DNA of 64,000 bases from IMG/VR virus record IMGVR_UViG_3300033121_000823, positions 19,348 to 83,347 of that record. One strand, written 5' to 3'. Numbering within the stretch: the stretch's first letter is position 1; each line of letters opens with the position of its first letter. This DNA is from a virus. Lineage: Duplodnaviria; Heunggongvirae; Uroviricota; Caudoviricetes. Positions 8,425 through 41,643 of the stretch are shown one piece after another. Below the pieces are notes generated by a model. It saw only the letters and a program-made list of their open reading frames with translations. It searched no databases and was not told the DNA's origin. Position numbers and translations under genes: made by a program.

Positions 8425-8516
8425 TGGCGGATATTTTCGGAATTGAACCGAACCCGGATTTTACTCGCGGACAGCTTAGCAGACTGTTGTAACGAACCAA
8501 TAGTTACCTAATATCC
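8425..8516 (-). tRNA. tRNA-Ser(GCU), type II, CCA encoded
   Basis: Acceptor GGATATT/AATATCC, T-arm TTCGG-TTCAATT-CCGAA, anticodon stem ACAGT/GCTGT with loop CTGCTAA, long variable arm. Confidence 0.55.
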
Positions 8517-12298: not shown

Positions 12299-12410
12299 GT
12301 GGTCACCCTTGGAATCGAACCAAGATACGTCCATTAGTAGTGGAATTTAAAATTGCTGAAGAAGATTAACTTCTATATACTGCTTTATCCATTAAGCTAA
12401 GTGACCAAGG
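12299..12410 (-). tRNA. atypical tRNA-like gene (about 108 nt)
   Basis: Acceptor GGTCACT/GGTGACC, D-arm GCTT-AATGGATA-AAGC, T-arm CTTGG-TTCGATT-CCAAG; about 34 extra nt between D- and T-arms. Confidence 0.35.
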
Positions 12411-15200: not shown

Positions 15201-15297
15201 TCATGATTATATCACACTCGCAAAGTGGACATTTCTTATTACGTACTAAAGACGTTTCACGAATATATCCAACCTGCTTCATAATTTCTTCATTCAT
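15094..15297 (-). CDS. small zinc-ribbon protein
   Basis: CPLCECD ... CQACQDE. Confidence 0.35.
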   Translation of the reverse strand: MNEEIMKQVGYIRETSLVRNKKCPLCECDIIMSDFRDNLSIREYKISGLCQACQDEIFEEAEYGEVL

Positions 15298-15755
15298 GGC
15301 TTAAATCCTATTTTTCGCGTAGAGTCGCCGAAAATACTTCTTGGAATATTATGCGGGTGAAAGATACCGTCTTTTCGCGAGCAAAAGACGAATTCGGCGG
15401 TTGCTACACATTTTTTCTCTATTAATTTTCTAGATTGAGAGTGTACTTCGACACTTATAGTTATAGCCTTTGTTCTAACATCAGTAATTCGACATTTAAT
15501 GTAAACAATATCACCCATTTGGGCGGCAGCATGAAACGTGCCGTTGAATTTATGAGTTACTGCACTATCACACTCTGTAAGAGTAAGGATTTGAGATACG
15601 CAGCAGGCAGCCGCTAAATCCATTTTAGAGAAGAGGGCACCACCGAAAATCATTGGTTGCATATAGTTAGTATCGGCGGGCATTACAACAAAGTTTGTTT
15701 CAAAAGTTAGGAAGTCATTCCAATTTTTATTCATATTATCCCTTTCAATATTCAA
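15294..15755 (-). CDS. hotdog-fold acyl-CoA thioesterase-like protein
   Basis: 4HBT-like core MPADTNYMQPMIFGGALFSKMDLAAA ... HAAAQMGDIVYI. Confidence 0.5.
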   Translation of the reverse strand: MNIERDNMNKNWNDFLTFETNFVVMPADTNYMQPMIFGGALFSKMDLAAACCVSQILTLTECDSAVTHKFNGTFHAAAQMGDIVYIKCRITDVRTKAITISVEVHSQSRKLIEKKCVATAEFVFCSRKDGIFHPHNIPRSIFGDSTRKIGFKP

Positions 15756-15757
15756 AG

Positions 15758-15835
15758 TTTGGTGTGCCAGAAGGTGCTCGAACCCTTCTCTGTTGCTCTT
15801 CAGGCAACCACTTTACCATCTAAGTTACTGGCACC
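15758..15835 (-). tRNA. tRNA-Phe(GAA), CCA encoded
   Basis: Acceptor GTGCCAG/CTGGCAC, D ACTT-AGATGGTA-AAGT, anticodon stem GTTGC/GCAAC with loop CTGAAGA. Confidence 0.6.
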
Positions 15836-15846
15836 TACTTCATAGG

Positions 15847-15919
15847 TCGTACTAGTAAGAATCGAACTTACATCTTGATTGTATCAGAATCACGTCTTAA
15901 ACCATTAGACGATAGTACG
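15847..15919 (-). tRNA. tRNA-Ile(GAU)
   Basis: Acceptor CGTACTA/TAGTACG, D GTCT/AGAC, anticodon stem TGATT/AATCA with loop CTGATAC, T-arm GTAAG-TTCGATT-CTTAC. Confidence 0.6.
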
Positions 15920-15920
15920 T

Positions 15921-16027
15921 TGGCGGGGAAGTTTGGATTTGAACCAAAATATATAGATTTTCAGTCTATTTTTTACCTTTTGGTATTTGCTGATATAGCA
16001 TATACAGGCTACATTTTTCTCTTCCCC
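15921..16027 (-). ncRNA. tRNA-like element with T-arm, CCA and embedded ATCAGCAA motif
   Basis: TTTGG-TTCAAAT-CCAAA then CTTCCCC-G-CCA; anticodon-like hairpin ATAGA-CTGAAAA-TCTAT. Matching acceptor GGGGAAG lies 107 nt away with a TATATCAGCAAATACCAAAAGG insert. Confidence 0.3.
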
Positions 16028-16032
16028 ATAGT

Positions 16033-16103
16033 ACCCAATAAGCGAATCGAACGCTTGCTTCAACCTTGTAAGGATTGCACTCTAACCACTGAGTTAATCG
16101 GGC
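16033..16103 (-). tRNA. tRNA-Val(UAC)
   Basis: Acceptor GCCCGAT/ATTGGGT with two GU pairs, D ACTC-AGTGGTTAG-AGTG, anticodon stem CAATC/GGTTG with loop CTTACAA, T-arm AAGCG-TTCGATT-CGCTT. Confidence 0.5.
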
Positions 16104-16104
16104 A

Positions 16105-16317
16105 TTATACATCATCAAAAATTTTTGGAGGATTTTTTAACATTAAAGTTATAACTACTGCTCCGCTAGCAAACATTAGTCCAACAACAGATGCGTGCTG
16201 TGCATCAATATTTCTTTCAAAGTTCCAGCCGCCAATATACAGCGGAATGAATGGAATAATAAAACAAAAGATAGCATTAAAACCTGCCCAAAATATACCT
16301 TTCATATGAATCTCCAA
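16105..16317 (-). CDS. small membrane protein
   Basis: 70 aa with two TM helices. Confidence 0.4.
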   Translation of the reverse strand: MEIHMKGIFWAGFNAIFCFIIPFIPLYIGGWNFERNIDAQHASVVGLMFASGAVVITLMLKNPPKIFDDV

Positions 16318-16728
16318 TTACATTACAACCTTACTTTCCACAAATATATCTTGCAACGATTCAAAGTAACCCTTCCAAGGTGGATACTTTTCAACCTTCT
16401 CGTAGTAAGTTTCATCGCTCACCGAGTCAATGATTGCTTGAGCATCCTTTTCATTTTTGTAAATTCCAACAATACAACCGTGTCCTTCAGAGTTTCCAAA
16501 GGAATCACCAGTACTATATCTCGCTAATACAATGTACACAGTTTGTCCACGAACTACATCAAAAGGAACTTCCTTAGTAATTGACATTGGAAAGGGTGCT
16601 ATTCGAATTTCTCTCAATTCGAAATTGTAGATTGATGTACCACGATACGACCAAGCTCCACCATCTTCCTCTGCTCCAATACCACTTTCTTCACACCATT
16701 CATCAAAGTCAACATATAGTGACGTCAT
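16318..16728 (-). CDS. hypothetical protein
   Basis: 136 aa ORF. Confidence 0.4.
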   Translation of the reverse strand: MTSLYVDFDEWCEESGIGAEEDGGAWSYRGTSIYNFELREIRIAPFPMSITKEVPFDVVRGQTVYIVLARYSTGDSFGNSEGHGCIVGIYKNEKDAQAIIDSVSDETYYEKVEKYPPWKGYFESLQDIFVESKVVM

Positions 16729-17255
16729 CGTATAATCCTTTTACATAACATTGAATAGTTTGATTCAAGTATCTCCTTGCCGAACCATGTAGGAATTTTA
16801 ACTACTGGAAATTCAATCTCAGTACTACTTAATAATTCTAATTCTAGAATAATCTTACAATTACTAAAAATATCTACATAAACTGAAAATGTTTCATAAA
16901 GATGTACTTTACGATTGAATCCTAGATGCCACTCAAAATTATTGGAATCTAATTTAAATCTTGTCTTAAAGAGATTTGCTGTTGGAAGAGATTCTAATAT
17001 TGTATAGGCGTCACGACTAATTTCATATTCTCTTTCATACTTTTTATACTTCTGTGTTATAAAATATACAGTGTTATTTTTACTTTCAAGTTTTCTTATT
17101 CTAGTCTTTCCATCATCTAAGTACTTTTGAGTTAACTGATAAGAATCAACAATATAAGGGACACAATGTTTTATAAAATTTTCAGTAGATAATTCAAATT
17201 TTTGCTCAATTTCAAACACTGTTGTATCCTTCTTTATATGCTCTATTAAGAGCAC
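16725..17255 (-). CDS. hypothetical protein
   Basis: 176 aa ORF. Confidence 0.4.
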   Translation of the reverse strand: MLLIEHIKKDTTVFEIEQKFELSTENFIKHCVPYIVDSYQLTQKYLDDGKTRIRKLESKNNTVYFITQKYKKYEREYEISRDAYTILESLPTANLFKTRFKLDSNNFEWHLGFNRKVHLYETFSVYVDIFSNCKIILELELLSSTEIEFPVVKIPTWFGKEILESNYSMLCKRIIR

Positions 17256-17517
17256 CGTTAAAGTTTAGACTTCGTGGATTTCCAAGTTCTGCATCCATTT
17301 TACCCATCTCACGAGTATACTTACAGAGTAATTTTTCTACTTCCAATGTATATGGTTCTTCTGACATATAAAATGCTGTCCCATGAGCGGGACAGTTCAT
17401 ATGCATTTCTTCTCTCTTACATCCAGAACATTTCGTAACTCTAGGTAAGTATGGTGAAGTAACGCTACTACGTAGCGAAAGTTCTCTATGCCTTTTCATA
17501 CGATTTATCCAAATCAA
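17212..17517 (-). CDS. hypothetical Cys/His-rich protein
   Basis: 101 aa with CSGCK..HMNCPAHG. Confidence 0.35.
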   Translation of the reverse strand: MIWINRMKRHRELSLRSSVTSPYLPRVTKCSGCKREEMHMNCPAHGTAFYMSEEPYTLEVEKLLCKYTREMGKMDAELGNPRSLNFNGALNRAYKEGYNSV

Positions 17518-17695
17518 ACGGAGTAATGTGGTATATTGATTCTTCAGTCCATAGGATAGTATCCTTTTCTCTTCTATCCCATAGTTCTTCTTTATAGTTT
17601 AAGGCATTAATAGCCATTTCTATAGAAGAAAAAACTCCAATTATACTAGTATCGAAGTATTTTTTACAAGTACGAGTCAAAATATATAATTCCAT
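17486..17695 (-). CDS. hypothetical protein
   Basis: 69 aa ORF. Confidence 0.35.
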   Translation of the reverse strand: MELYILTRTCKKYFDTSIIGVFSSIEMAINALNYKEELWDRREKDTILWTEESIYHITPFDLDKSYEKA

Positions 17696-17712
17696 ATATA
17701 CTCCTTAATAAG

Positions 17713-17784
17713 TCCAGCCAGCAGAACTCGAATCTACTTAATGAGGGCCACAACCTCACGCATTACCATATATGCTATGGCTGG
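17713..17784 (-). tRNA. tRNA-His(GUG)
   Basis: Acceptor CCAGCCA/TGGCTGG, anticodon stem TGAGG/CCTCA with loop TTGTGGC. Confidence 0.55.
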
Positions 17785-17835
17785 GAAGGTGAGATAGGAT
17801 ACTATTGAGGTATCATTTCAACGCAGTAGCGTTGC

Positions 17836-17862
17836 GTTTTATCTGTAAGGACTTTTGTTTAT
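17836..17862 (+). terminator. hairpin plus T-run (plus-strand-oriented intrinsic terminator-like)
   Basis: CAACG-CAGTAG-CGTTG followed by CGTTTTAT. Confidence 0.3.
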
Positions 17863-17907
17863 ACAGTTTGCCATTAAAACTACTATCTCATTTATAGGAA
17901 TATACAT

Positions 17908-18132
17908 TTACTTACTCTTCCGAAGGAAGGGAATACTTCCCCAGCGTTCCTTAGTCTTTTCAAGTCCAACTTCTTCAGAAATCTTCTTCGCCTTAAGCGA
18001 AGCATCAGTCGAAAGTTTTGTACTTTCCAACTCAACCTTTTTATTGAGATGAATGACCGTTCCAATAATGCCCACTGAAAGAACAATGGCAAGACAAACA
18101 ATTCCACACAACTTTACTTCATGTGACATTTC
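17908..18132 (-). CDS. small membrane-anchored basic protein
   Basis: Track ORF 17908..18249 overlaps tRNA-Arg; likely starts at internal MSHEVKLCGIV... Confidence 0.35.
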   Translation of the reverse strand, partial: EMSHEVKLCGIVCLAIVLSVGIIGTVIHLNKKVELESTKLSTDASLKAKKISEEVGLEKTKERWGSIPFLRKSK

Positions 18133-18164
18133 AAAACTCCAAAAATTAATAGGAAAAGAAATAG

Positions 18165-18236
18165 TGCCCTTCATAGGATTTGAACCTACTCTTATACTTT
18201 CGTAGAGTATCGTGCTCTCCGTTACACTAAAAGGGC
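18165..18236 (-). tRNA. tRNA-Arg(ACG)
   Basis: Acceptor GCCCTTT/GAAGGGC, D GTGT-AACGGAG-AGCAC, anticodon stem ATACT/AGTAT with loop CTACGAA. Confidence 0.6.
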
Positions 18237-18364
18237 ATAGCACACTCAATTGGTTTGTCCAATATCTCTACTAAACTTAAAAAGTAGAAATGTTATGATA
18301 TTCATGAGTATCATTATTACACCATAAGTGTGTAAGCTTGTTAGAGGTACATATGATAGTTCTA

Positions 18365-18445
18365 ACTTACTCAGCGGAAGCGCAGAAAATCGAATTCTGG
18401 ACCCTTTCGGGCACTGTTTTCAAGACAGTTTAGCACGCCAACTGC
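18365..18445 (-). tRNA. tRNA-Ser(UGA), type II
   Basis: Acceptor GGAAGTG/CGCTTCC, anticodon stem ACTGT/ACAGT with loop CTTGAAA, variable arm GCCCGAAAGGGT, T-arm CAGAA-TTCGATT-TTCTG. Confidence 0.55.
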
Positions 18446-18509
18446 AATCACTTCCTGGTCGCGGATTCTTACGCTCATGAAACGTAAGTTTGCTAGCTTA
18501 ATCCGCAAG

Positions 18510-18595
18510 CGTTCCACTGGGGAATCGAACCCTATCCTTCCAACCAACGTATTTAAGGAATCAACTTAGAAGATTGATGTCGGCTACAGTGGAAC
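18510..18595 (-). tRNA. type II tRNA, anticodon unresolved
   Basis: Perfect acceptor GTTCCAC/GTGGAAC, T-arm TAGGG-TTCGATT-CCCCA, about 86 nt with long variable region. Confidence 0.4.
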
Positions 18596-18602
18596 GTAAA
18601 CA

Positions 18603-18668
18603 GACATCACTTTTTAAACAAAAACCATTGTTATTTTGATAGTTGCTGATGATGTCTTAGTACCGTGT
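18603..18668 (-). ncRNA. conserved inter-tRNA element A (hairpin AGACATCA...TGATGTCT containing ATCAGCAACTAT)
   Basis: Shares TTTTGATAGTTGCTGATGATGTCTT with element B (22444..22499) and ATCAGCAA with 15975..16032; sits between tRNAs. Confidence 0.35.
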
Positions 18669-18670
18669 AC

Positions 18671-18742
18671 GGGTAACGCCCCCGTCTCATCAGATTGAAA
18701 TTCTGAGAACCTCACTTGAAGTTAAACACGGCATATTATTTT
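18671..18742 (-). tRNA. tRNA-Glu(UUC)-like with atypical T-loop
   Basis: Acceptor GCCGTGT/ACACGGT, D AACT-TCAAGTGA-GGTT, anticodon stem TCAGA/TCTGA with loop ATTTCAA, T-arm ACGGG-GGCGTTA-CCCGT. Confidence 0.4.
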
Positions 18743-18797
18743 TGGTGTATACTATATAGGCACCATTTCTGGAAACTTTTATCTATAGGAGAATCAA

Positions 18798-19382
18798 ATG
18801 TACACCTGCAAATGTGGGACTATATTCACACAAACAAAACATAATCAAATTTATTGTAGCAAAAAATGTAAATATAAATTTAAAAGATTAAAAGTATTAG
18901 CAAATAAAAACAAAAATAATTTTTGTATTGTATGTAATACAAATACATATAATCCAAAATATTGTTCTAAAAAATGTTATTTATCAATAAATAAAATTTC
19001 TAGTCCAAAATTAAAAGATGTTTTTTGTAAAAAGTGTAATACGTTTCTTAGAAACGGTTCTACATTATCCCAAATAAAAATTTGTAATAATTGTAATCCT
19101 AATTATGTTGATTGGTCAAAAATAACAAAAATAGAAATGAGAAATAAATATAAAAATTCATTGCAATATCATTCAAGACTACGTTCTTTAGCAAGAAAGA
19201 AGTGTAAAGATAATACCTGTAAAATATGTGGATATACATTACATATTGAAGTATGCCATATACGTCCTATATCAGATTTTCCAGACACAGCTTTAGTTTC
19301 TGAAATAAATGATATGTCAAATCTTGTAGCTTTATGTCCTAATTGCCATTGGGAATATGACAACGGATTAATAAAACTTTAG
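18798..19382 (+). CDS. HNH homing endonuclease, free-standing in tRNA cluster
   Basis: Multiple CxxC zinc fingers; C-terminal HIEVCHIRPISDF ... LVALCPNCHWEYDNG is an HNH His-Me finger; plus strand among minus-strand tRNAs. Confidence 0.75.
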   Translation: MYTCKCGTIFTQTKHNQIYCSKKCKYKFKRLKVLANKNKNNFCIVCNTNTYNPKYCSKKCYLSINKISSPKLKDVFCKKCNTFLRNGSTLSQIKICNNCNPNYVDWSKITKIEMRNKYKNSLQYHSRLRSLARKKCKDNTCKICGYTLHIEVCHIRPISDFPDTALVSEINDMSNLVALCPNCHWEYDNGLIKL

Positions 19383-19383
19383 C

Positions 19384-19452
19384 AGCGGAACCTGGAATCG
19401 AACCAGGGAGGTTAGCTTATGAAACTAACGAGATACCACTTCTCAATTCCGC
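19384..19452 (-). tRNA. tRNA-Met(CAU) (could be fMet, Met or Ile-lysidine type)
   Basis: Acceptor GCGGAAT/GTTCCGC, anticodon stem TTAGT/GCTAA with loop TTCATAA, T-arm CCTGG-TTCGATT-CCAGG. Confidence 0.5.
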
Positions 19453-19455
19453 AAG

Positions 19456-19529
19456 TTTCACTAGTTGGACTCGAACCAACGCTGTCGCGGACTATTAATC
19501 CCGCCGTTCTACCACTGAACTATAGTGAA
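19456..19529 (-). tRNA. tRNA with 8-nt anticodon loop (ATTAATAG), identity unresolved
   Basis: Acceptor TTCACTA/TAGTGAA, classic D-arm GTTC-AGTGGTA-GAAC, T-arm GTTGG-TTCGAGT-CCAAC, anticodon stem GCGGG/CCGC(T). Confidence 0.45.
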
Positions 19530-19671
19530 TCCTCCATTATTAGTAGCGATGGATTGACACTCATTTTAGTCGCCGTAACTTTACACCAATAACTCCGACT
19601 CAAAGTGTCGTTGTGTTCATATACAGCCAAAGTAATCATATTTTAATTCCCATTACTGGGGAATCGCGCGA

Positions 19672-19710
19672 GTAGTCCGGGTAGGAATTGAACCTACGAC
19701 TTCCACTTTA
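19672..19710 (-). tRNA. 3' exon of intron-containing tRNA (anticodon likely UAU or GAU)
   Basis: Anticodon 3' stem AGTGG, variable AAGTC, T-arm GTAGG-TTCAATT-CCTAC, acceptor CCGGACT complementary to GGTCCGG at 20021..20027. Confidence 0.45.
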
Positions 19711-19992
19711 TCTTACCACTATAGTTTTCACTACCAATAAATTGTTTGTGGTCTGGACTTTTTCTTTATCATGATATTATTTCTAATATTTTAGATATTT
19801 CCCGTAAAGTCTCTGCACTTTTTGGCGTCTTCAATCAAGAATTAGACAAATGTATACTATTGTGTCATAATTGTCACTGTGAAGAACATGCCAACTTAGC
19901 TCAAGATTGCCATGATAGTTAGTAACTATCGAAGGTTTCCTTGAATTTGAGAAATTCTACTTTTACCGTTTCCAGTAAAGCACTCATAAATC
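19711..19992 (-). mobile_element. group I intron in tRNA anticodon loop (about 280 nt, no intact ORF)
   Basis: R-like GTGCAGAGACTTTACGGGAAA and S-like AAGAAAAAGTCCAGAC (compare td R GTTCACAGACTA, S AAGATATAGTCGGAC); 5' exon ends in U, intron ends in G. Confidence 0.45.
19795..19920 (+). pseudogene. remnant HNH-like ORF inside the tRNA intron (antisense)
   Basis: Short ORF ending ...ELDKCILLCHNCHCEEH resembling the C-terminal LCPNCH HNH motif of 18798..19382. Confidence 0.25.
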
Positions 19993-20027
19993 TAAGAATG
20001 GCGCTCTAACCACTGAGCTACCGGACC
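19993..20027 (-). tRNA. 5' exon of intron-containing tRNA
   Basis: GGTCCGG-TA-GCTC-AGTGGTTA-GAGC-G-CCATT-CTT; no downstream complement for anticodon stem until 19702..19706. Confidence 0.45.
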
Positions 20028-20159
20028 ATACGGCCTATCGGCCGATATATTCTTTACTACAAACTAAATATATTCTATATGAGTGGACACTGTGGGAGTC
20101 AAACCCAAAAAACTTCGTTGCAAGCGAAATCCCTACATCGGTAGGACCAGGCCCATTAT

Positions 20160-20354
20160 TTATATCTTCACAAGATTATTAGGTTCAAAAGAGGCGAAAG
20201 TCTGTTTATTACTTCGTCTCATATACTCAACTCTAACACGCTTTTCACTAAAACCGCAGATGATACCGCGTTTAAGTCGTGTTGTACAACCAATCTTTAC
20301 AGGCATTACAACCTCATCACCAAGCGATAGTTCTTTTCCGGCAAAATCTTTCAC
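20160..20354 (-). CDS. hypothetical small protein
   Basis: 64 aa ORF. Confidence 0.3.
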   Translation of the reverse strand: MKDFAGKELSLGDEVVMPVKIGCTTRLKRGIICGFSEKRVRVEYMRRSNKQTFASFEPNNLVKI

Positions 20355-20614
20355 ATTACATTCCTTATATGGGCCTTTGTCTTCTCAATTCTTTCAAAGT
20401 TAGCTCTGCCATCATTACATGATAAACAGGCAACCCAAATATCTTCATCATACCAGCCTAGTCTACCATTACATCCAAGACACTCTTTATCAATATTATT
20501 GCAATATTCCTCATATTGTTTTTGTGACATATCTCCATCAATGTCACTCGGTAGTCTTCCAGGTTTTGCCAACAGTTTATCTGGTAGTTGTTTCATGTGG
20601 TTTCCATTTTTCAT
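20351..20614 (-). CDS. small zinc-finger protein
   Basis: CLGCNG ... CLSCNDG. Confidence 0.35.
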   Translation of the reverse strand: MKNGNHMKQLPDKLLAKPGRLPSDIDGDMSQKQYEEYCNNIDKECLGCNGRLGWYDEDIWVACLSCNDGRANFERIEKTKAHIRNVM

Positions 20615-21200
20615 AAATTAAATTATCAATTTTAATTTGCATTTCTTTTTTAAATTCATTAATTTCAGTTAATTTATGATGATTAGGACATAATGGTATT
20701 AGATTTTTAACGTCATTATTACTATGATTATAGTCAATATGATGCACTTCTACAACTTTATCCCAGTCACATATTGCACATTTATACTCCCAATATTGAA
20801 AACAGATATGTCTATAAATAGTTCTTGTTTTAGAACCTTTAACAAACATTCCAGTTTTATACTGACCGTTATTTTCCCCGCTTCTAAAGAATGTATTCGC
20901 ACACGCTCTAGAACAAACGCTTTTTTCATCCTTATGATTTGTTTTAGTTTGAAATTTAATATTGCAAACTGGACAAACCTTTTCAAGTATTATATACTTT
21001 CTCGACCATGCCCATTTATCAAAATGGGAAATATTTAAGTTATTTTCAACAATAATTTTTTCAAGCTTTTTAAAACCATTACCATTTATTGGTATATTTA
21101 AAGCTCTAGCAAACTCACTTTTACTTTTTGATTGATTAGCTATTAATTGTAAATTTTCTATAGACTGCATAGTATATCTCCTTAATATACTATACACCAA
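20577..21200 (-). CDS. HNH homing endonuclease
   Basis: CPVCN/CSRAC zinc fingers and VVEVHHIDYNHSNNDVKNLIPLCPNHH HNH motif. Confidence 0.7.
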   Translation of the reverse strand: MVYSILRRYTMQSIENLQLIANQSKSKSEFARALNIPINGNGFKKLEKIIVENNLNISHFDKWAWSRKYIILEKVCPVCNIKFQTKTNHKDEKSVCSRACANTFFRSGENNGQYKTGMFVKGSKTRTIYRHICFQYWEYKCAICDWDKVVEVHHIDYNHSNNDVKNLIPLCPNHHKLTEINEFKKEMQIKIDNLIYEKWKPHETTTR

Positions 21201-21226
21201 TTTTAGTCTAACATCAAAGATTTCGG

Positions 21227-21304
21227 TCTAGTAGGTCGGATTTGAACCGACGTAATCTCCTGTTCCCAAAACAGGCGAGATAAACCAAACTCCTCTACTA
21301 CTAG
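21227..21304 (-). tRNA. tRNA-Pro(UGG)
   Basis: Acceptor CTAGTAG/CTACTAG, anticodon stem CCTGT/ACAGG with loop TTTGGGA, T-arm GTCGG-TTCAAAT-CCGAC. Confidence 0.55.
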
Positions 21305-21308
21305 TTGT

Positions 21309-21408
21309 TCGCGAATATAGGATTCTAACCTATTCTCAGTTCCGTAAACTGCACTAGCCTCATGCACCAGAAAAGAAGTTCTAATCATCGTCATGACAAA
21401 CATTCGCG
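21309..21408 (-). ncRNA. atypical tRNA-like element (100 nt) flanked by 7-bp inverted repeat CGCGAAT/ATTCGCG
   Basis: T-arm-like ATAGG-TTAGAAT-CCTAT and anticodon-like CAGT-TTACGGA-ACTG; no canonical D-arm. Confidence 0.3.
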
Positions 21409-21411
21409 AAG

Positions 21412-21485
21412 CTCCATCCCTACGTAACGCTCGTAGCAAAGCGGGTGTTAACAGCACCCCGGATTCACTTGCTTCCTCGGATGGA
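21412..21485 (-). tRNA. tRNA-Asn(GUU)
   Basis: Perfect acceptor TCCATCC/GGATGGA, anticodon stem GGGTG/CACCC with loop CTGTTAA, T-arm CTACG-AGCGTTA-CGTAG. Confidence 0.5.
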
Positions 21486-21550
21486 ATAATACATAAGTGA
21501 TTGTTATCTTGAGTAATTAGCTACTTTACTCTCATCCAATGTTATGTAAG

Positions 21551-21623
21551 CGATGTATACGGGAATTAAACCCGCAGCATCGTGTTCGACAAACACGCCT
21601 CATTATCGTTTGAGTCATACACC
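21551..21623 (-). tRNA. tRNA-Asp(GUC)
   Basis: Acceptor GGTGTAT/ATACATC, D CTCA/TGAG, anticodon stem CGTGT/ACACG with loop TTGTCGA. Confidence 0.6.
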
Positions 21624-21627
21624 ATTA

Positions 21628-21715
21628 GTATCGACAACAGGATTTGAACCTGTATGGTATTTTTATAACCGGCACGTTCTAAGCGTGATGCGTCTGCCTT
21701 TCCGCCATGTCGACA
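21628..21715 (-). tRNA. tRNA-Leu(UAG), type II
   Basis: Acceptor TGTCGAC/GTCGATA, anticodon loop CTTAGAA, long variable arm, T-arm ACAGG-TTCAAAT-CCTGT, 88 nt. Confidence 0.55.
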
Positions 21716-21804
21716 TACTTTCTACCGAAAGTAGTAAAGACAAAATATAAAGCTTAAAATAAGCGAAATAATTATAACTGCTAGAAGCACAAATATAGCA
21801 ATAA

Positions 21805-22020
21805 TCATTTACAATAAACCTTTACCTCTTCTTTTTCTCTATCAACTTCTTTATATCCACCTTTTCTAGCAACATCAGTAGTTGGAGACTGAACATTTCT
21901 ATCTTCAAACCAAACTGTGCAGTCTTGCTCGCCTTGTCCTTCAAACCAACTTGCTAAAATCTTAGCTTGTTTAAAGGTTAACCCTTCAAAAATACAACGT
22001 GCCATAATTATTCCTTTCAA
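21805..22020 (-). CDS. hypothetical protein within tRNA cluster
   Basis: 71 aa ORF with upstream spacing consistent with RBS. Confidence 0.4.
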   Translation of the reverse strand: MKGIIMARCIFEGLTFKQAKILASWFEGQGEQDCTVWFEDRNVQSPTTDVARKGGYKEVDREKEEVKVYCK

Positions 22021-22025
22021 TTTAT

Positions 22026-22099
22026 TGGTGGAACCATAGAGAATCGAACTCTACTATTCTGGGTAAGAGCCAGAAGCATCACCACAATGCTTTGGTTCC
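22026..22099 (-). tRNA. tRNA-Lys(CUU), CCA encoded
   Basis: Acceptor GGAACCA/TGGTTCC, D GCAT-TGTGGTG-ATGC, anticodon stem TCTGG/CCAGA with loop CTCTTAC, T-arm TAGAG-TTCGATT-CTCTA. Confidence 0.6.
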
Positions 22100-22197
22100 A
22101 ACTACGTTGGTATTATAGTTACAAAACTGACTAGTGTTCCACATAATGGATTGGCCTCCCAATTTAATTGCTTGGAAATTTTTGCTGAACTAGTCAA

Positions 22198-22269
22198 GTA
22201 GGGCCGCAGGGACTTGAACCCTATTCTTCTTGTTAAAAGCAAGAAGCTTCACCGTAAAAGCTTCGACCC
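22198..22269 (-). tRNA. tRNA-Lys(UUU)
   Basis: Acceptor GGGGTCG/CGGCCCT, D GCTT-TTACGGTG-AAGC, anticodon stem TCTTG/CAAGA with loop CTTTTAA. Confidence 0.6.
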
Positions 22270-22368
22270 CAAATATTGCACATACATTGAATATTAAAAC
22301 TCTTATTATAGTTTGCAGAACCATAATAATTGCCAATGTCATCTACTGCATTATTAGATGGTGCAAGT

Positions 22369-22439
22369 GGATTGTGAAGGATTTGAACCTCCATCACCGG
22401 CTAATTCGACGGTGCATTTTTCATTATGCTAACAACCCA
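22369..22439 (-). tRNA. tRNA, anticodon arm non-canonical (unresolved)
   Basis: Acceptor GGGTTGT/ACAATCC, D GCAT-AATGAAAA-ATGC, T-arm GGAGG-TTCAAAT-CCTTC; anticodon region ACCGTCGAATTAGCCGGTG. Confidence 0.4.
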
Positions 22440-22443
22440 TTAG

Positions 22444-22499
22444 AACAGACTACGAATCGCATCAATTAACAGTTGATAATTTTATAGTTGCTGATATAG
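22444..22499 (-). ncRNA. conserved inter-tRNA element B (hairpin AGACTA...TAGTCT containing ATCAGCAACTAT)
   Basis: Aligns with element A over TTTTATAGTTGCTGATATAGTCTT. Confidence 0.35.
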
Positions 22500-22502
22500 T
22501 CT

Positions 22503-22575
22503 TGGCGGGCGGGGTTGGTTTTGACCAACAACTCTAACTAAAGTTAGTGTATTTCTTTATACTACCCACCCATAA
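22503..22575 (-). ncRNA. tRNA-like gene with 4-nt anticodon loop, CCA encoded
   Basis: Acceptor GGGTGGG/CCCGCCC, D GTAT/ATAC, T-arm GTTGG-TCAAAA-CCAAC, GCCA 3' end; CTAAC-TTTA-GTTAG hairpin replaces the anticodon loop. Confidence 0.35.
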
Positions 22576-22633
22576 ACAGATTACACTAATCATTGATAAT
22601 TAATGTTTGATTAGATTTTGCTGAGGTAATCTT

Positions 22634-22721
22634 TAGTGAGCCATAAGGGAATCGAACCCCTTGCCTGCCAACACACATAATAAAGGCAACTGTTTTACAG
22701 ACAGCCGTGTGTAATATGACT
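22634..22721 (-). tRNA. type II tRNA, possibly Tyr(GUA), atypical D region
   Basis: Acceptor GAGTCAT/ATGGCTC, anticodon-like GCTGT-CTGTAAA-ACAGT, long extra arm, T-arm AGGGG-TTCGATT-CCCTT. Confidence 0.35.
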
Positions 22722-22736
22722 CATTATTTCTTCCAA

Positions 22737-22818
22737 GTATCGCCGGTGGGATTCGAACCCACAATCCCGAAGGCAGGAATTTTTAAGACTCCTGTGTATA
22801 CCAGTTCCACCACGGCGA
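22737..22818 (-). tRNA. tRNA-Leu(UAA), type II
   Basis: Acceptor GTCGCCG/CGGCGAT, anticodon stem GGAGT/ATTCC with loop CTTAAAA, variable arm with TTCG hairpin, T-arm GTGGG-TTCGAAT-CCCAC. Confidence 0.5.
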
Positions 22819-22833
22819 CATACATTCTTTTTA

Positions 22834-22907
22834 GTACTAGTTGTCGGAATCGAACCGACTCTTTTTCCGTTTTACAAGAACGGTGCCTTCCCATTCGGCC
22901 AAACTAG
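22834..22907 (-). tRNA. tRNA-Thr(UGU)
   Basis: Acceptor ACTAGTT/AACTAGT, anticodon stem CCGTT/AACGG with loop CTTGTAA, T-arm GTCGG-TTCGATT-CCGAC. Confidence 0.55.
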
Positions 22908-22921
22908 TGAAATAGCACTGG

Positions 22922-23539
22922 ATGGCGTATATAGTAGTATACACTTCACATAATCCAGTAAAGAGGTCAAAAAAAATGAACAAGTGCGAACAATGTCAAA
23001 ACGATTCCAATGGTAGATTTTGTTCTAAACGATGCTGTATTATTTGGAATAATAAAGCTAGAGCCAAACCTAAAAAGGAAAAAGTACAAAAACTTTGCCT
23101 AAACTGTTCAAAGCCAACTAAACGTAAATATTGCTCAAGTGATTGTTCACAACAATATAAAAAGCAAAGCTTATGTTTAAATTGTAACAATAAAACAAAA
23201 AGAAAATTTTGTTCCACAAAATGTCAAAGACAATTTTTAGATAAAAAAATATTTCTCAATATAGAGTCAGGAGTTAACTTATGTCTACATAGCAAAAAAC
23301 GCTATCTAATACATAAATATGGTGACAAGTGCTCTATATGTTCGGTTGAAACATGGCTCGATAAACCACTCGTGAAGATTTTAGACCACATTGATGGTAA
23401 TTCATCAAATAATGATATTACTAATCTTCGTTTAGTTTGCTCAAATTGCGACTCTCAACTACCAACATACAAAAGTAAGAATAAAGGAAACGGTAGACAT
23501 TACAGACGTGAACGATACAAAAACAATCAATCATACTGA
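22922..23539 (+). CDS. HNH homing endonuclease
   Basis: Repeated CxxC/CSxxC zinc knuckles; C-terminal HIDGNSSNNDITNLRLVCSNCD HNH motif. Confidence 0.7.
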   Translation: MAYIVVYTSHNPVKRSKKMNKCEQCQNDSNGRFCSKRCCIIWNNKARAKPKKEKVQKLCLNCSKPTKRKYCSSDCSQQYKKQSLCLNCNNKTKRKFCSTKCQRQFLDKKIFLNIESGVNLCLHSKKRYLIHKYGDKCSICSVETWLDKPLVKILDHIDGNSSNNDITNLRLVCSNCDSQLPTYKSKNKGNGRHYRRERYKNNQSY

Positions 23540-23597
23540 CCGTTGCCCTGTCCCACTATTATACTACCTTAGTACCTCTCAGTCAACGGGGTCAAAT

Positions 23598-23622
23598 TAT
23601 TCAGTAAAAGGTCCGGCGGTCG
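23598..23622 (-). terminator. GC hairpin plus T-run downstream of 23656..24072
   Basis: CCGGCG-AC-CGCCGG followed by ACCTTTTAC on the minus strand. Confidence 0.35.
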
Positions 23623-23655
23623 CCGGTTGTCCGCTCATTATACTAAGTGGAACCC

Positions 23656-24072
23656 CTACTGTCCAGTGGTCAAAAGTTTAGCCTGTTCTTCCAAAATTAT
23701 TCTTTCGGCAATTCGTTCTATCAATGCTCGTATCCGATTAAGTAGTCGGCAACGTCCTCTTCTCAATTGTAGGTCAACCGTAGAAGTCACGATTGCACCG
23801 CTTTCTCCATAGCTTACATCAGCCCTATAATAAAAGCTGTTTACGCGACCATGTGGCGATAAAGTTTTCACTTCAAGATAGCCAATATTTGTCCTAGTAT
23901 ATACTTTACAAGTAACTTCTAAATCTGCATCCTTAACAATCGGCGGAATATTTTCCCGTATCTTTTGGAAGACCGGATGGTCCTCACTAATCCTAACAGT
24001 CTTACTATCTTCGGCTGACGCCTCAGTTAATAGGAAAAAAGAAAGTAGGGCCGCCGCGAATATCTTATACAT
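23656..24072 (-). CDS. secreted hypothetical protein (contains 40-bp repeat copy)
   Basis: Signal peptide MYKIFAAALLSFFLLTEASA; RBS GAGGAAAAAT; internal GESGAIVTSTVDL encoded by the repeat. Confidence 0.5.
   Translation of the reverse strand: MYKIFAAALLSFFLLTEASAEDSKTVRISEDHPVFQKIRENIPPIVKDADLEVTCKVYTRTNIGYLEVKTLSPHGRVNSFYYRADVSYGESGAIVTSTVDLQLRRGRCRLLNRIRALIERIAERIILEEQAKLLTTGQ
23769..23808. repeat. 40-bp perfect direct repeat, copy 1 (inside secreted-protein gene)
   Basis: GTAGGTCAACCGTAGAAGTCACGATTGCACCGCTTTCTCC is identical to 45421..45460. Confidence 0.8.
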
Positions 24073-41601: not shown

Positions 41602-41643
41602 AATTTGGTCTCCTTACCAAAATATACATAGTAAAGAAAAGAA

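What the first reader, a model, noticed from the sequence alone, without database searches (positions are those of the whole stretch)
15758..22907. Large tRNA cluster interleaved with homing endonucleases and non-canonical tRNA-like genes
At least 25 tRNA or tRNA-like genes on the minus strand between 15.7 and 22.9 kb (plus others elsewhere) include Phe, Ile, Val, His, Arg, Ser x2, Met, Pro, Asn, Asp, Leu x2, Lys x2 and Thr. Three HNH genes on either strand (18798..19382, 20577..21200, 22922..23539) sit among them, as SegB does in the T4 tRNA region. Several members are atypical: 8-nt anticodon loop (19456..19529), 4-nt loop with intact CCA (22503..22575), unusual T-loops GGCGTTA/AGCGTTA, about 100 nt tRNA-like elements (12299..12410, 21309..21408), and a type II gene with a degenerate D-arm (22634..22721).
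Basis: seen in the sequence. Interest (0 to 1): 0.5.

Follow-up and report, generated by a model that had tools for sequence, protein, structure and literature searches.

The report
Phage tRNA array invaded by selfish elements
A large uncultured phage carries about 22 tRNA genes plus four tRNA-like RNAs in 7 kb.

Summary
Standard detectors find 16 uninterrupted tRNA genes on the minus strand of 15.7-22.9 kb. Relaxed detection and comparison with two related phages (L002, L252) add Glu, Asn, Ala, Tyr and Arg(UCU), and four tRNA-like RNAs remain. All three HNH genes are confirmed.

The main new result is a 282-nt group I intron at 19712-19993. It splits a tRNA-Ile(UAU) gene between anticodon positions 34 and 35.
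- L002 carries the exact intron-less allele. A third variant, L268, carries the intron in a different downstream context.
- The intron belongs to the classical bacterial tRNA-intron family. On a 34-member alignment, 94% of cells pair in the proposed structure, against 28-40% in slid controls.
- Its guide sequence has a compensating change that fits the Ile exon.
- The same core motif lies inside split tRNA genes in at least 87 viral contigs and three GenBank phages. A 2014 review stated that all phage introns then known were in protein-coding genes.

All three HNH sites differ from L002: two genes are simply absent there and one survives only as a remnant.

The atypical tRNAs are not all decay:
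- Glu(UUC), with a changed D-loop and T-loop, shows 8 compensated pairs among three phages.
- Asn, and the tRNA with an 8-nt anticodon loop, are 96-97% identical between genomes that are about 70% identical.

What the odd tRNAs do remains untested.

The parts
22834..22908 (-). tRNA-Thr(UGU), first gene of the array
   Evidence: ARAGORN; Rfam 58.6 bits
22737..22819 (-). tRNA-Leu(UAA), type II
22637..22722 (-). tRNA-Tyr(GUA), type II, D arm lost. The D-region ACACAC can pair with GUGUGU in the variable region.
   Evidence: Rfam 22.1 bits. Positional homologue of the canonical Tyr genes L002 4157-4240 and L252 14388-14473. Fold.
22503..22575 (-). tRNA-like RNA: 7-bp acceptor stem, D and T arms, 5-bp stem with a 4-nt loop, T-loop UCAAAAC, encoded GCCA
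   Evidence: ARAGORN ps90, '(tt)'. Fold z = -3.3. 100% identical in L002 together with about 200 nt of flanks.
22367..22438 (-). tRNA with a non-standard anticodon arm (4-bp stem, loop UCGAAUUAGC). Its L002 homologue has the loop AUAUAAA.
   Evidence: Rfam 45.9 bits
22198..22270 (-). tRNA-Lys(UUU)
22026..22099 (-). tRNA-Lys(CUU)
21628..21714 (-). tRNA-Leu(UAG), type II
21550..21623 (-). tRNA-Asp(GUC), T-loop UUUAAUU
   Evidence: Rfam 48 bits; ARAGORN ps90
21411..21485 (-). tRNA-Asn(GUU) with a changed elbow (D-loop CAAGUGA, T-loop AGCGUUA), discriminator G
   Evidence: ARAGORN ps90. 96% identical to L252 15685-15761 against a background of about 70%. No similar tRNA in 50,697 phage records.
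21309..21408 (-). 100-nt tRNA-like element: acceptor stem CGCGAAU/AUUCGCG and T arm AUAGG-UUAGAAU-CCUAU; the middle part is unclear
   Evidence: Sequence. Fold z = -1.4, so weak. No homologue seen in L002 or L252.
21225..21304 (-). tRNA-Pro(UGG)
20577..21200 (-). Free-standing HNH endonuclease gene (HNH2). The 607-nt block 20608-21214 is absent from L002.
   Evidence: PHROG HNH families 1e-15; Pfam HNH_2 19.9 bits, just below the cut-off. Insertion boundaries.
20085..20159 (-). tRNA-Ala(UGC) with G3:U70, a 5-bp D stem with a tiny loop, and a weak lower acceptor stem
   Evidence: ARAGORN relaxed and mt modes. Identical in L002. D, anticodon and T stems covary with L252 19296-19367.
19994..20027 (-). 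tRNA-Ile(UAU) 5' exon (positions 1-34, ends ...CUU)
   Evidence: ARAGORN -i; alignment with the intron-less L002 allele
19712..19993 (-). Group I intron, 282 nt, no ORF. It contains P1-P9, a P7 G-binding site and a terminal G.
   Evidence: Rfam RF00028 55.4 bits. Exact gap in L002. Structure tested on 34 homologues. Matches 78 of 84 conserved columns.
19672..19711 (-). tRNA-Ile(UAU) 3' exon (begins AUAA...)
   Evidence: The spliced product folds as a perfect cloverleaf tRNA-Ile(UAU).
19455..19529 (-). tRNA with an 8-nt anticodon loop AUUAAUAG ('UAAU')
   Evidence: ARAGORN; Rfam 50.6 bits. 97% identical in L252 16957-17031.
19382..19453 (-). tRNA(CAU), Met type
18798..19382 (+). Free-standing HNH endonuclease gene (HNH1), antisense to the array. 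L002 keeps only an 80-nt remnant of its 3' end.
   Evidence: Pfam HNH_2 40.5 bits and HNH 24.9 bits
18660..18732 (-). tRNA-Glu(UUC) with a changed elbow (D-loop UCAAGUGA, T-loop GGCGUUA)
   Evidence: ARAGORN -mt. Three-phage alignment: 100% paired, 8 of 21 pairs compensated.
18511..18605 (-). tRNA-Arg(UCU)-like with a long extra arm. Positional counterpart of the canonical Arg(UCU) L002 8236-8308.
   Evidence: ARAGORN ps90. Fold z = -1.1, so weak.
18456..18505 (-). 50-nt mini-helix: 7-bp acceptor-like stem plus a hairpin carrying CAU, then GACCA
   Evidence: Sequence; fold z = -2.2. Identical in L002.
18374..18455 (-). tRNA-Ser(UGA)
   Evidence: ARAGORN
18164..18236 (-). tRNA-Arg(ACG)
17712..17784 (-). 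tRNA-His(GUG)
16031..16103 (-). tRNA-Val(UAC)
15921..16027 (-). tRNA-like RNA: acceptor stem GGGGAAG/CUUCCCC plus GCCA, anticodon arm with GAA, canonical T arm. The D arm is replaced by two hairpins flanking a TCAGCAA motif.
   Evidence: Rfam 26.9 bits. Fold z = -2.6. Hairpin 1 covaries with L002.
15845..15919 (-). tRNA-Ile(GAU)
15760..15834 (-). tRNA-Phe(GAA), last gene of the array
22922..23539 (+). Free-standing HNH endonuclease gene (HNH3), antisense, lying between the promoter-like sites and the first tRNA. The 605-nt block 22915-23519 is absent from L002.
   Evidence: Pfam HNH_3 26.6 bits; PHROG 3.5e-19
23558..23665 (-). Two strong sigma-70-like promoter matches (11 of 12) upstream of the array
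   Evidence: consensus match only
12299..12406 (-). Outlying 108-nt tRNA-like gene with an extra hairpin and a TCAGCAA motif between the D arm and a CUACUAA loop
   Evidence: Rfam tRNA 38.3 bits. Fold z = -2.5. Conserved in L002 at 44.4 bits.

Best explanation
This is the tRNA gene array of a large uncultured lytic-type phage that also encodes rIIA/rIIB, NAMPT and RNA ligases.

How the array probably works (inferred). It is probably transcribed from promoter-like sites at about 23.6 kb as one or a few polycistronic precursors. Host RNase P, RNase Z and the CCA-adding enzyme would then process them. This follows what is known for the T4 tRNA region. The mature tRNAs mostly carry U at position 34. 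They would supply decoders for the A/U-ending codons the phage prefers: AUA 23 per thousand, UUA 32, AGA 18, GAA 49.

The array is also a hotspot for selfish DNA.
1. Three free-standing HNH endonuclease genes lie between tRNA genes. At two of these sites the sibling phage L002 has no insert, and at the third it keeps only an 80-nt remnant. L002 carries another nuclease gene at a fourth site.
2. A 282-nt ORF-less group I intron sits between U34 and A35 of tRNA-Ile(UAU).

The intron presumably splices itself (inferred from structure). The 5' exon end CUU pairs with the intron's GAG to form P1, with U34 in a U-G pair. The 3' exon AUAAA pairs with the adjacent intron UUUAU to form P10. An external guanosine attacks after U34, and the intron's terminal G then directs exon ligation. 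The product is a canonical tRNA-Ile(UAU).

The intron descends from the bacterial and phage tRNA-Leu(UAA) intron lineage. It adapted to the Ile gene through one guide-sequence change, and the two anticodon loops differ at only one base.

What is shown: the intron's presence and absence among relatives, its exact boundaries, covariation in its structure, covariation in tRNA-Glu, and the HNH domains.

What is inferred: transcription and processing, actual splicing, endonuclease activity, aminoacylation, and any role of the atypical tRNAs.
For: tRNA calls. HNH domains.

Intron:
- Rfam RF00028 55.4 bits against a gathering score of 50.
- ARAGORN calls tRNA-Ile(UAU) with a 282-nt intron.
- L002 has the uninterrupted allele, with the junction exactly CTT|ATAA.
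- L268, from a third sample, carries the same intron with a different downstream tRNA.
- The spliced product is a perfect cloverleaf.
- The intron is homologous to tRNA introns of Agrobacterium phage Atu_ph07, huge phage LR756501 and a Microcoleus phage.
- It is also homologous to classical alpha-proteobacterial tRNA-Arg(CCU) and cyanobacterial tRNA-fMet introns.
- On 34 sequences, 94.3% of cells pair, against 28-40% when partners are slid. 35 of 56 pairs carry double changes, and 0 of 500 shuffles reach this.
- The window's P4 has compensated pairs seen in none of the other 33 sequences. It matches 78 of 84 conserved columns. Intron position 7 is A, pairing with U36, where 31 of 33 relatives have T, pairing with A36.

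HNH insert boundaries. Codon usage. Promoter-like sites.

tRNA-Glu covariation: 100% paired and 8 compensated pairs. Asn and the 8-nt-loop tRNA are 96-97% identical to L252, against about 70% for the genomes.

T4 precedent for a tRNA precursor that also yields species I and II RNAs: PMC2330249.
Against: - There are no expression, splicing, aminoacylation or cleavage data.
- P1 has only 3 base pairs. The fourth pair seen in relatives (A-U) is U-U here.
- One near-invariant core base differs: C instead of T in GUGUAGAG.
- The host is unknown, so the codon-supplement argument compares only phage codons with phage anticodons.
- Several elements have no support beyond a fold and conservation in a close relative: 21309-21408, 18511-18605, 18456-18505 and 22367-22438.
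- At the site of the 8-nt-loop tRNA, other strains carry a different tRNA whose anticodon loop is 7 nt (L002) or 6 nt (L268). That looks unconstrained.
Confidence: 0.8

Rival explanations
1. The atypical members are decaying pseudogenes or assembly noise. On this view only the roughly 17 canonical genes function. The elements concerned are: the tRNA-like RNA with a 4-nt loop, the 100-nt elements, the mini-helix, Tyr without a D arm, Arg(UCU) with an extra arm, 22367-22438, and possibly the 8-nt-loop tRNA.
For: - Change between close relatives is rapid. Tyr has a canonical D arm in L002 and L252 but not here. Arg(UCU) is canonical in L002.
- The anticodon arm of 22367-22438 is rewritten between the window and L002.
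- The tRNA at the position of the 8-nt-loop gene has a 7-nt loop in L002 and a 6-nt loop in L268.
- Fold z-scores are weak for 21309-21408, 18511-18605 and 20085-20159.
Against: - Glu has 8 compensated pairs and Ala keeps G3:U70 with covarying stems.
- Asn and the 8-nt-loop tRNA are more conserved between the window and L252 (96-97%) than canonical tRNAs such as Val (82%).
- The 4-nt-loop element is 100% identical in L002 amid diverged neighbours.
- The window is identical to an independent assembly over 14606-22550 (L004).
Confidence: 0.35
2. The non-canonical tRNAs are counter-defence molecules. They would be versions that host tRNA-cleaving defences (anticodon nucleases, or Septu-type variable-loop nucleases) cannot recognise. 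Alternatively they act as decoys that soak up such nucleases. The HNH genes would help by moving or amplifying these cassettes.
For: - The window encodes several RNA-repair proteins: a T4 Rnl1-like ligase, an Rnl2-type ligase and RlaP.
- The variation falls in the anticodon loops, the Tyr variable and D regions, and the elbow, which are parts that tRNA-binding enzymes generally contact (my own reasoning, not checked here).
- SegB-driven amplification of tRNA-Tyr defeats Septu, which cuts the tRNA-Tyr variable loop, and nuclease genes are statistically linked to phage tRNAs (PMC13096335).
- Haplotypes are mosaic, with breakpoints at tRNA borders.
Against: No host, no defence system and no cleavage data are known. 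A decoy role and a resistant-decoder role make different predictions, and neither was tested. Codon supplementation alone explains the canonical members.
Confidence: 0.25
3. The tRNA at 19455-19529 is a natural four-base decoder or +1 frameshift-promoting tRNA. It would resemble laboratory suppressor tRNAs that have an extra anticodon-loop nucleotide.
For: It has an 8-nt loop in an otherwise canonical cloverleaf (Rfam 50.6 bits). It is 97% conserved in a relative whose genome is about 70% identical. +1 frameshift suppressors with expanded anticodon loops are well established (for example SufB2; bioRxiv 10.1101/2020.12.31.424971).
Against: - In L252 the closing G-U pair is a U-U mismatch, so the loop may be 10 nt.
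- No candidate frameshift site was identified.
- Other strains carry an unrelated odd tRNA at the same site.
- No homologue was found in IMG/VR using the stem-loop motif; the seven hits were chance matches.
Confidence: 0.07
4. The intron is a dead insertion that inactivates this tRNA-Ile(UAU) copy. Decoding of AUA would then rely on the second copy at 46720-46791.
For: A second Ile(UAU) gene exists. P1 has only 3 base pairs. There is one substitution in a near-invariant core position.
Against: All helices are intact, with lineage-specific compensated pairs in P4 and an adapted P10. The exons give the best cloverleaf of the three Ile(UAU) genes compared. The intron is 99% conserved in L268, from another sample. 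Three-base-pair P1 helices work in the Azoarcus tRNA-Ile intron (my own knowledge; not checked here).
Confidence: 0.07

Closest known systems
Bacterial tRNA group I introns: cyanobacterial and plastid tRNA-Leu(UAA), cyanobacterial tRNA-fMet, alpha-proteobacterial tRNA-Arg(CCU) and Azoarcus tRNA-Ile(CAU). The IC3 label for these is from my own knowledge; Nakagawa et al. 2026 (PMC13011429) class 81% of bacterial tRNA introns as subgroup IC.
   Same: - Inserted in the anticodon loop at 34/35, as in tRNA-Leu(UAA).
- Short and without an ORF.
- Same guide sequence (U)UGAGUGC, the same P7 G[A]GACU/AGUCC, and the same AGUCCAGACNACAAAC and CUAUAGUGGUAAG elements.
- Alignable along its whole length, with covariation.
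   Different: - The host gene is tRNA-Ile(UAU), which was not seen among about 186 other split tRNAs carrying the same motif.
- The carrier is a phage.
- P10 is adapted to the Ile exon.
- P5 and P6 carry extra hairpins, giving 282 nt against about 200 nt.
- P4 is AU-rich.
T4 tRNA region with SegB (PMC2330249; PMC13096335)
   Same: A phage tRNA operon that also encodes tRNA-like stable RNAs (T4 species I and II). A free-standing homing endonuclease gene lies between tRNA genes. That gene is present or absent among relatives.
   Different: The nucleases here are HNH, not GIY-YIG. There are three of them, two antisense to the array. The array is about three times larger. One tRNA gene carries a group I intron, which T4 tRNA genes do not.
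Group I introns of phages in protein-coding genes (T4 td, nrdB and nrdD; Twort; Bastillevirinae; Jug phages)
   Same: A self-splicing group I intron in a phage genome that also holds many homing endonuclease genes. The 3' part of the window's intron is 89% identical over 59 nt to an intron in a crAss-like phage helicase gene.
   Different: Inserted in a tRNA gene, not a protein-coding gene. A 2014 review stated that all phage introns known then were in protein-coding genes (PMC3984707).
Frameshift-suppressor tRNAs with expanded anticodon loops (sufD, sufJ and SufB2 types)
   Same: An 8-nt anticodon loop in a normal cloverleaf.
   Different: This one occurs naturally and is conserved across phages. 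Nothing shows that it decodes, and its amino-acid identity is unknown.
Mitochondrial-type degenerate tRNAs
   Same: Loss or replacement of the D arm, non-canonical D-loop and T-loop interactions, and detection only by relaxed or mitochondrial search modes.
   Different: Encoded by a phage of bacteria. The alternative elbow (D-loop CAAGUGA with T-loop RGCGUUA) is shared by Glu and Asn and is conserved with covariation.

Membership tests
Group I intron (Rfam RF00028), bacterial tRNA-intron lineage | Score at or above the curated Rfam gathering threshold | tested here: met
   55.4 bits against 50 at 19734-20017
Group I intron (Rfam RF00028), bacterial tRNA-intron lineage | 5' splice site after a U that forms a U-G pair in P1. 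The intron ends in G. P10 pairs with the 3' exon. | tested here: met
   The exon ends CUU and pairs with intron GAG (positions 9-11). The intron ends ...GGUAAG. Intron UUUAU (positions 4-8) pairs with exon AUAAA. The boundaries are fixed by the intron-less L002 allele.
Group I intron (Rfam RF00028), bacterial tRNA-intron lineage | Conserved core helices P3-P9, including P7 with a bulged A and a G-C guanosine-binding pair, supported by covariation | tested here: met
   56 pairs on 34 sequences: 94.3% paired, 35 pairs with double changes, 0 of 500 shuffles as high. P7 is invariant, so it neither supports nor contradicts the structure.
Group I intron (Rfam RF00028), bacterial tRNA-intron lineage | Insertion in the anticodon loop of a tRNA gene whose exons give a valid tRNA | tested here: met
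   ARAGORN -i; spliced product folds as a cloverleaf
Group I intron (Rfam RF00028), bacterial tRNA-intron lineage | Assignment to subgroup IC3 with subgroup-specific covariance models | not tested
   Subgroup models were not available. Assignment rests on homology to tRNA-Arg(CCU), tRNA-fMet and tRNA-Leu introns.
Group I intron (Rfam RF00028), bacterial tRNA-intron lineage | Guanosine-dependent self-splicing | not testable with these tools
   Needs an in vitro splicing assay or RNA-seq
tRNA (Rfam RF00005) | Score at or above the gathering threshold of 29 bits | tested here: inconclusive
   Met by 15 genes in the region and by 12300-12406. Not met by Tyr (22.1 bits) or 15929-15978 (26.9 bits). 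Glu, Asn, Ala, Arg(UCU), 22503-22575 and 21309-21408 are not listed at all.
tRNA (Rfam RF00005) | Cloverleaf maintained by compensating changes among homologues (atypical members) | tested here: met
   Glu: 21 of 21 pairs kept in 3 phages, 8 compensated. Ala: D, anticodon and T stems compensated and G3:U70 kept. Not testable for Asn and the 8-nt-loop tRNA because the copies are nearly identical.
HNH homing endonuclease (free-standing) | HNH nuclease domain | tested here: met
   HNH1: Pfam HNH_2 40.5 bits. HNH3: HNH_3 26.6 bits. HNH2 is below the Pfam cut-off (19.9 against 21) but matches PHROG HNH families at 1e-15.
HNH homing endonuclease (free-standing) | Gene present or absent at otherwise collinear sites in relatives | tested here: met
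   Blocks 22915-23519 and 20608-21214 are absent from L002. Block 18743-19299 is deleted in L002, which keeps a remnant.
HNH homing endonuclease (free-standing) | Site-specific cleavage of the insert-free allele, and biased inheritance | not testable with these tools
   Needs purified protein or co-infection experiments
SegB / GIY-YIG Seg endonucleases of T4 | GIY-YIG catalytic domain | tested here: not met
   The listed Pfam and PHROG matches of all three proteins are to HNH families apart from one PHROG family of unknown function. The resemblance is functional, not family membership.
+1 frameshift-suppressor tRNAs | Anticodon loop with an extra nucleotide | tested here: met
   Loop AUUAAUAG, 8 nt
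+1 frameshift-suppressor tRNAs | Reads four bases or shifts the reading frame | not testable with these tools

The most novel reading that the evidence does not exclude
The atypical tRNAs are a previously undescribed functional class of phage tRNAs. They include the Glu and Asn genes with the changed elbow, the conserved tRNA with an 8-nt anticodon loop, and the perfectly conserved 4-nt-loop RNA that ends in CCA.

On this reading they are shaped by conflict with host tRNA-targeting defences, acting as nuclease-resistant decoders or as decoys. Alternatively, the 8-nt-loop tRNA may decode in a non-triplet way. The HNH genes and the group I intron would then drive exchange of these cassettes between distantly related phages.
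Probability: 0.17. Interest if true: 0.8.

Novelty: new variant of a known kind. Interest (0 to 1): 0.55.

Why it matters
1. The window gives a natural 'filled site / empty site' pair for a group I intron in a phage tRNA gene. The intron is in a host gene, tRNA-Ile(UAU), that I did not see among about 186 related split tRNAs. Its guide sequence shows how an intron of the tRNA-Leu(UAA) lineage can move to a neighbouring anticodon with one compensating change.

2. The quick survey run here suggests that group I introns in phage tRNA genes are widespread but under-annotated. The Rfam model misses the homologues in three GenBank phages. A 2014 review stated that phage introns were confined to protein-coding genes.

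3. A conserved, covarying alternative tRNA elbow and a conserved tRNA with an 8-nt anticodon loop are concrete targets for tRNA sequencing and structural work. They bear on current questions about why phages carry tRNAs: to supply codons, or to escape tRNA-cleaving defences.

Tried and rejected
- Megablast of the region against 50,697 phage records found nothing. Sensitive blastn hit only generic tRNAs and an HNH fragment.
- A scan of viral contigs with the neighbouring 570-aa protein found no relatives. So did a scan with an exact 26-mer of the intron core.
- Homologues of the in-cluster 176-aa ORF were limited to near-identical copies.
- More distant relatives found through the 570-aa protein (L255, L256, L264, L265, L266) have no tRNA cluster at that position, so they gave no comparative data.
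- The stem-loop motif of the 8-nt-loop tRNA gave seven chance hits in IMG/VR, none of them a tRNA.
- Rfam RF00028 did not detect the clearly homologous introns of Atu_ph07, LR756501 and the Microcoleus phage at E of 0.01 or better. Absence of an Rfam hit is therefore not evidence of absence for this lineage.
- Stop-codon recoding, suggested by the tRNA(CUA), is not supported in this window.
- I considered reading the TCAGCAA-containing elements that follow several tRNAs as armless tRNAs. One has a perfect Asn-type loop, CUGUUAA, with discriminator G. The fold statistics are not better than shuffles (z = +0.6 to -2.1), so I left this unexplained.
- ARAGORN at very low thresholds (ps80 with introns) gives 137 'genes' across the window and was disregarded.
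- The 'tRNA-Tyr(AUA)' intron calls in viral contigs are mis-split tRNA-Leu(UAA) genes.
- I did not use my recollection of the Azoarcus ribozyme sequence as evidence.

Full report
**What the window is**

Almost all genes lie on the minus strand, and G+C is about 35%. The proteins include rIIA and rIIB, nicotinamide phosphoribosyltransferase, a T4 Rnl1-like RNA ligase and a PurZ-like adenylosuccinate synthetase. The best match in 50,697 phage records is an uncultured 595-kb phage, at 33% amino-acid identity for rIIA. There is no nucleotide match. The source is therefore a novel large phage.

Related contigs come only from assemblies of public sequencing runs:
- L004 is identical to the window over 14606-22550.
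- L002 comes from a 184-kb contig and is 84-97% identical in patches.
- L268 is a third variant.
- L252 is a more distant relative, with about 70% nucleotide identity and 80% identity for a neighbouring 570-aa protein.

**Checking the observation**

ARAGORN at default settings finds 14 tRNAs on the minus strand between 15760 and 22908. Rfam at its curated threshold confirms 13 of these and adds Asp(GUC) 21551-21623 and an odd tRNA at 22368-22438.

Allowing introns adds a tRNA-Ile(UAU) at 19672-20027. Relaxed and mitochondrial modes add Arg(UCU), Asn(GUU), Glu(UUC), Ala(UGC) and the 22503 element. Sub-threshold Rfam matches mark Tyr 22637-22722 and 15929-15978.

I count about 22 genes with a readable anticodon and 4 tRNA-like elements. 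The three HNH ORFs are confirmed by Pfam and PHROGs.

**The feature that was missed**

Rfam reports a group I intron at 19734-20017 (55.4 bits, gathering score 50). ARAGORN places it in a tRNA-Ile(UAU) gene as a 282-nt intron.

L002 has the same gene uninterrupted. The alignment shows one clean 282-nt gap between CTT and ATAA of the anticodon loop. The intron is therefore 19712-19993, between U34 and A35.

The sequence shows the expected pairings:
- The exon end CUU pairs with intron GAG (positions 9-11). This forms P1, with the splice-site U in a U-G pair.
- The adjacent intron UUUAU (positions 4-8) pairs with the 3' exon AUAAA, forming P10.
- The intron ends in G.

The spliced product is a perfect cloverleaf. 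It is better than both the intron-less L002 allele and the second Ile(UAU) gene at 46720-46791. The anticodon stem differs between the window and L002 by a compensated pair, C-G against A-U.

L268, from a third sample, carries the same intron at 99% identity but a different tRNA downstream. Intron presence is thus polymorphic and separable from its neighbours.

**What kind of intron it is**

Sensitive blastn links the intron's 3' half to four phage sequences:
- Agrobacterium phage Atu_ph07.
- The 735-kb huge phage LR756501.
- A Microcoleus phage, where GenBank annotates a 286-nt 'tRNA-Arg'.
- An intron in a crAss-like phage helicase gene.

ARAGORN finds split tRNA-Leu(UAA) genes in the first two and a split tRNA-Arg(CCU) in the third. 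All three align with the window's intron along its full length.

The motif lies inside an intron-split tRNA gene in about 87 viral loci and about 99 bacterial loci. Most are Leu(UAA) split at 34/35. The bacterial set includes the classical hosts: Bartonella and Mesorhizobium tRNA-Arg(CCU), and cyanobacterial tRNA-fMet.

I wrote helices P1-P9 by hand from the window sequence and tested them on 34 aligned pre-tRNAs:
- 94.3% of cells pair, against 28-40% when the partners are slid.
- 35 of 56 pairs carry changes on both sides.
- No shuffle out of 500 reaches the observed values.
- P7, G[A]GACU/AGUCC, is invariant.

This structure was derived from one of the sequences, which inflates the 'cells paired' measure. 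The counts of double changes do not suffer from that bias.

The window matches 78 of the 84 intron columns that are at least 90% conserved in the others. The six exceptions break down as follows:
- Four are compensated pairs in P4.
- One is intron position 7, which is A here and T in 31 of 33 relatives.
- One is a C for T in the GUGUAGAG element that precedes P7.

Position 7 pairs with exon position 36. That base is U in Ile(UAU) and A in Leu(UAA). The Leu(UAA) and Ile(UAU) loops, CUUAAAA and CUUAUAA, differ only at that base. The simplest history is a move of a tRNA-Leu(UAA)-type intron into the Ile gene, followed by one compensating change in the guide sequence.

I saw no other Ile(UAU) host among the roughly 186 split genes examined.

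**How unusual this is**

[quoted passage not shown] My literature searches found recent surveys of bacterial tRNA introns (PMC13011429; bioRxiv 10.1101/2020.01.27.920355). They found none for phages.

The sequence data nevertheless show that such introns are frequent in viral contigs. Forty of 87 lie within 3 kb of at least two other tRNAs and 21 lie near at least four. The figures for bacterial loci are 28 and 5 of 99.

Some IMG/VR hits could be host tRNAs at prophage edges. The three GenBank phages cannot be explained that way. The Rfam model misses all three, which probably explains the lack of annotation.

The intron is therefore a new member of a known family, in a new host gene. It also has an empty-site allele available for comparison.

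**The endonuclease genes**

Relative to L002, the blocks 22915-23519 (HNH3) and 20608-21214 (HNH2) are clean insertions. At the HNH1 site L002 keeps an 80-nt remnant of the gene's 3' end, so there the difference is a deletion in L002.

L002 carries a different nuclease gene between Ser(UGA) and Arg(ACG). L252 has a 49%-identical relative of HNH3 at yet another position.

This is the behaviour expected of free-standing homing endonucleases. It parallels SegB in T4 functionally (PMC2330249), and a statistical association of SegB homologues with phage tRNAs has been reported (PMC13096335). These proteins are HNH, not GIY-YIG.

The intron has no ORF. It lies between HNH2 (about 550 nt upstream) and HNH1 (about 290 nt downstream). 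Help from one of them in trans is possible but rests on a single co-occurrence.

The 5' exon differs from L002 at 6 of 34 positions, by my count on the alignment, whereas the Ala gene just upstream is identical. That pattern fits co-conversion of the flanks.

**The atypical tRNAs**

*Glu(UUC), 18660-18732.* Homologues exist in L002 and L252. All 21 cloverleaf pairs are kept in all three phages, and 8 pairs carry compensating double changes. With slid partners the count is 0-1. The anticodon is constant. The D-loop, UC(A/U)AGUGA, and the T-loop, RGC(G/A)U(U/A)A, replace the canonical GG and UUCRANY.

*Asn(GUU), 21411-21485.* It shares the same alternative elbow (CAAGUGA with AGCGUUA). It is 96% identical in L252, with the similarity ending at the gene borders. 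No similar tRNA exists in the phage database.

*Ala(UGC).* It keeps the G3:U70 pair, and its D, anticodon and T stems covary with L252.

*Tyr(GUA).* It is the positional homologue of canonical type II genes in L002 and L252 but has lost its D arm.

*The 8-nt-loop tRNA, 19455-19529.* It is 97% identical in L252 and sits next to the Met gene in both phages. The closing G-U pair is U-U in L252, however. L002 and L268 carry an unrelated odd tRNA at that site, with 7-nt and 6-nt loops.

*The 4-nt-loop element, 22503-22575.* It ends in CCA and is 100% identical in L002, along with its flanks, amid diverged neighbours.

*Weakly supported.* The elements 21309-21408, 18511-18605 and 18456-18505 have little support.

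Some atypical members are clearly under structural selection. For others, decay cannot be excluded.

**How it probably works**

Two strong sigma-70-like matches lie just upstream of the array. By analogy with T4, whose 1.75-kb transcript yields eight tRNAs and the species I and II RNAs (PMC2330249), I infer polycistronic transcription followed by processing by host enzymes.

Most anticodons start with U. The phage favours A/U-ending codons, with AUA at 23 per thousand (32% of Ile codons), UUA 32, AGA 18 and GAA 49. This fits codon supplementation.

The window also encodes RNA-repair enzymes. Together with the recent literature on tRNA-cleaving defences, this makes a counter-defence role for some variants plausible but untested.

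**Verdict**

The finding gains a polymorphic self-splicing intron in a phage tRNA-Ile(UAU) gene and covariation evidence for a non-canonical tRNA elbow. I rate it a new variant of a known kind, of moderate to good interest.

Noticed in passing
window 62833-62905 (-): An amber-suppressor-type tRNA (anticodon CUA) is the joint-highest-scoring tRNA in the window (Rfam 62.5 bits). TAG is the rarest stop codon (7 of 81 long ORFs). Treating TAG as sense does not lengthen ORFs more than treating TGA as sense, so recoding is not evident in this window.
   Followed up: partly
window 40266-42429 (-): An Rnl2/PHA02142-type RNA ligase gene appears to be interrupted by an intein. Hint and intein-splicing matches flank a middle ORF with an HTH motif, and local G+C falls to 0.30. 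This looks like another selfish element in an RNA-repair gene.
   Followed up: partly
window 48337-49431 (-) and 51111-51728 (-): A T4 Rnl1-like RNA ligase and an RlaP (RNA-repair pathway) protein. A more distant relative, L266, has Rnl1 next to a polynucleotide kinase/phosphatase. This is the kind of equipment phages use to repair cleaved tRNAs.
   Followed up: no
window 42968-44032 (-): A PurZ-like adenylosuccinate synthetase (phrog_1211). It hints at 2-aminoadenine in the phage DNA.
   Followed up: no
window minus strand at 22624, 22494, 22188, 18649, 15993, 12359: Six of the nine minus-strand copies of the motif TCAGCAA lie in tRNA regions. Four sit 2-4 nt after a tRNA, inside elements closed by a perfect 7-8 bp stem followed by G and a run of T. 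Two lie inside insertions within tRNA-like genes. The motif is present in L002 and absent from the L252 cluster. Its function is unknown.
   Followed up: partly
L252 4559-4896 (+): The related phage contig encodes a tmRNA (Rfam RF00023, 63.7 bits).
   Followed up: no
L008, L010, L011 (Microcoleus phage OR578706, huge phage LR756501, Agrobacterium phage Atu_ph07): Three GenBank phages carry group I introns in tRNA-Arg(CCU) or tRNA-Leu(UAA) genes. Rfam RF00028 does not detect them at E of 0.01 or better. In the Atu_ph07 record no tRNA is annotated at the site (a short hypothetical-protein CDS overlaps it), and the LR756501 record has no annotation at all.
   Followed up: partly
window 46720-46791 (-): A second, intron-less tRNA-Ile(UAU) gene with a poor D arm lies far from the main array. 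Its acceptor stem is related to that of the intron-containing copy.
   Followed up: partly
L002 8446-9066 (-): I had assumed this 206-aa ORF was an HNH gene, but no family was on record for it and I saw no HNH motif by eye. Its C-terminus looks to me like a Vsr/DUF559-type nuclease, and it shares 33% identity over 95 aa with an L252 protein that is related to HNH3.
   Followed up: no
window 8425-8516 (-): An isolated tRNA-Ser(GCU) lies outside the main array.
   Followed up: no
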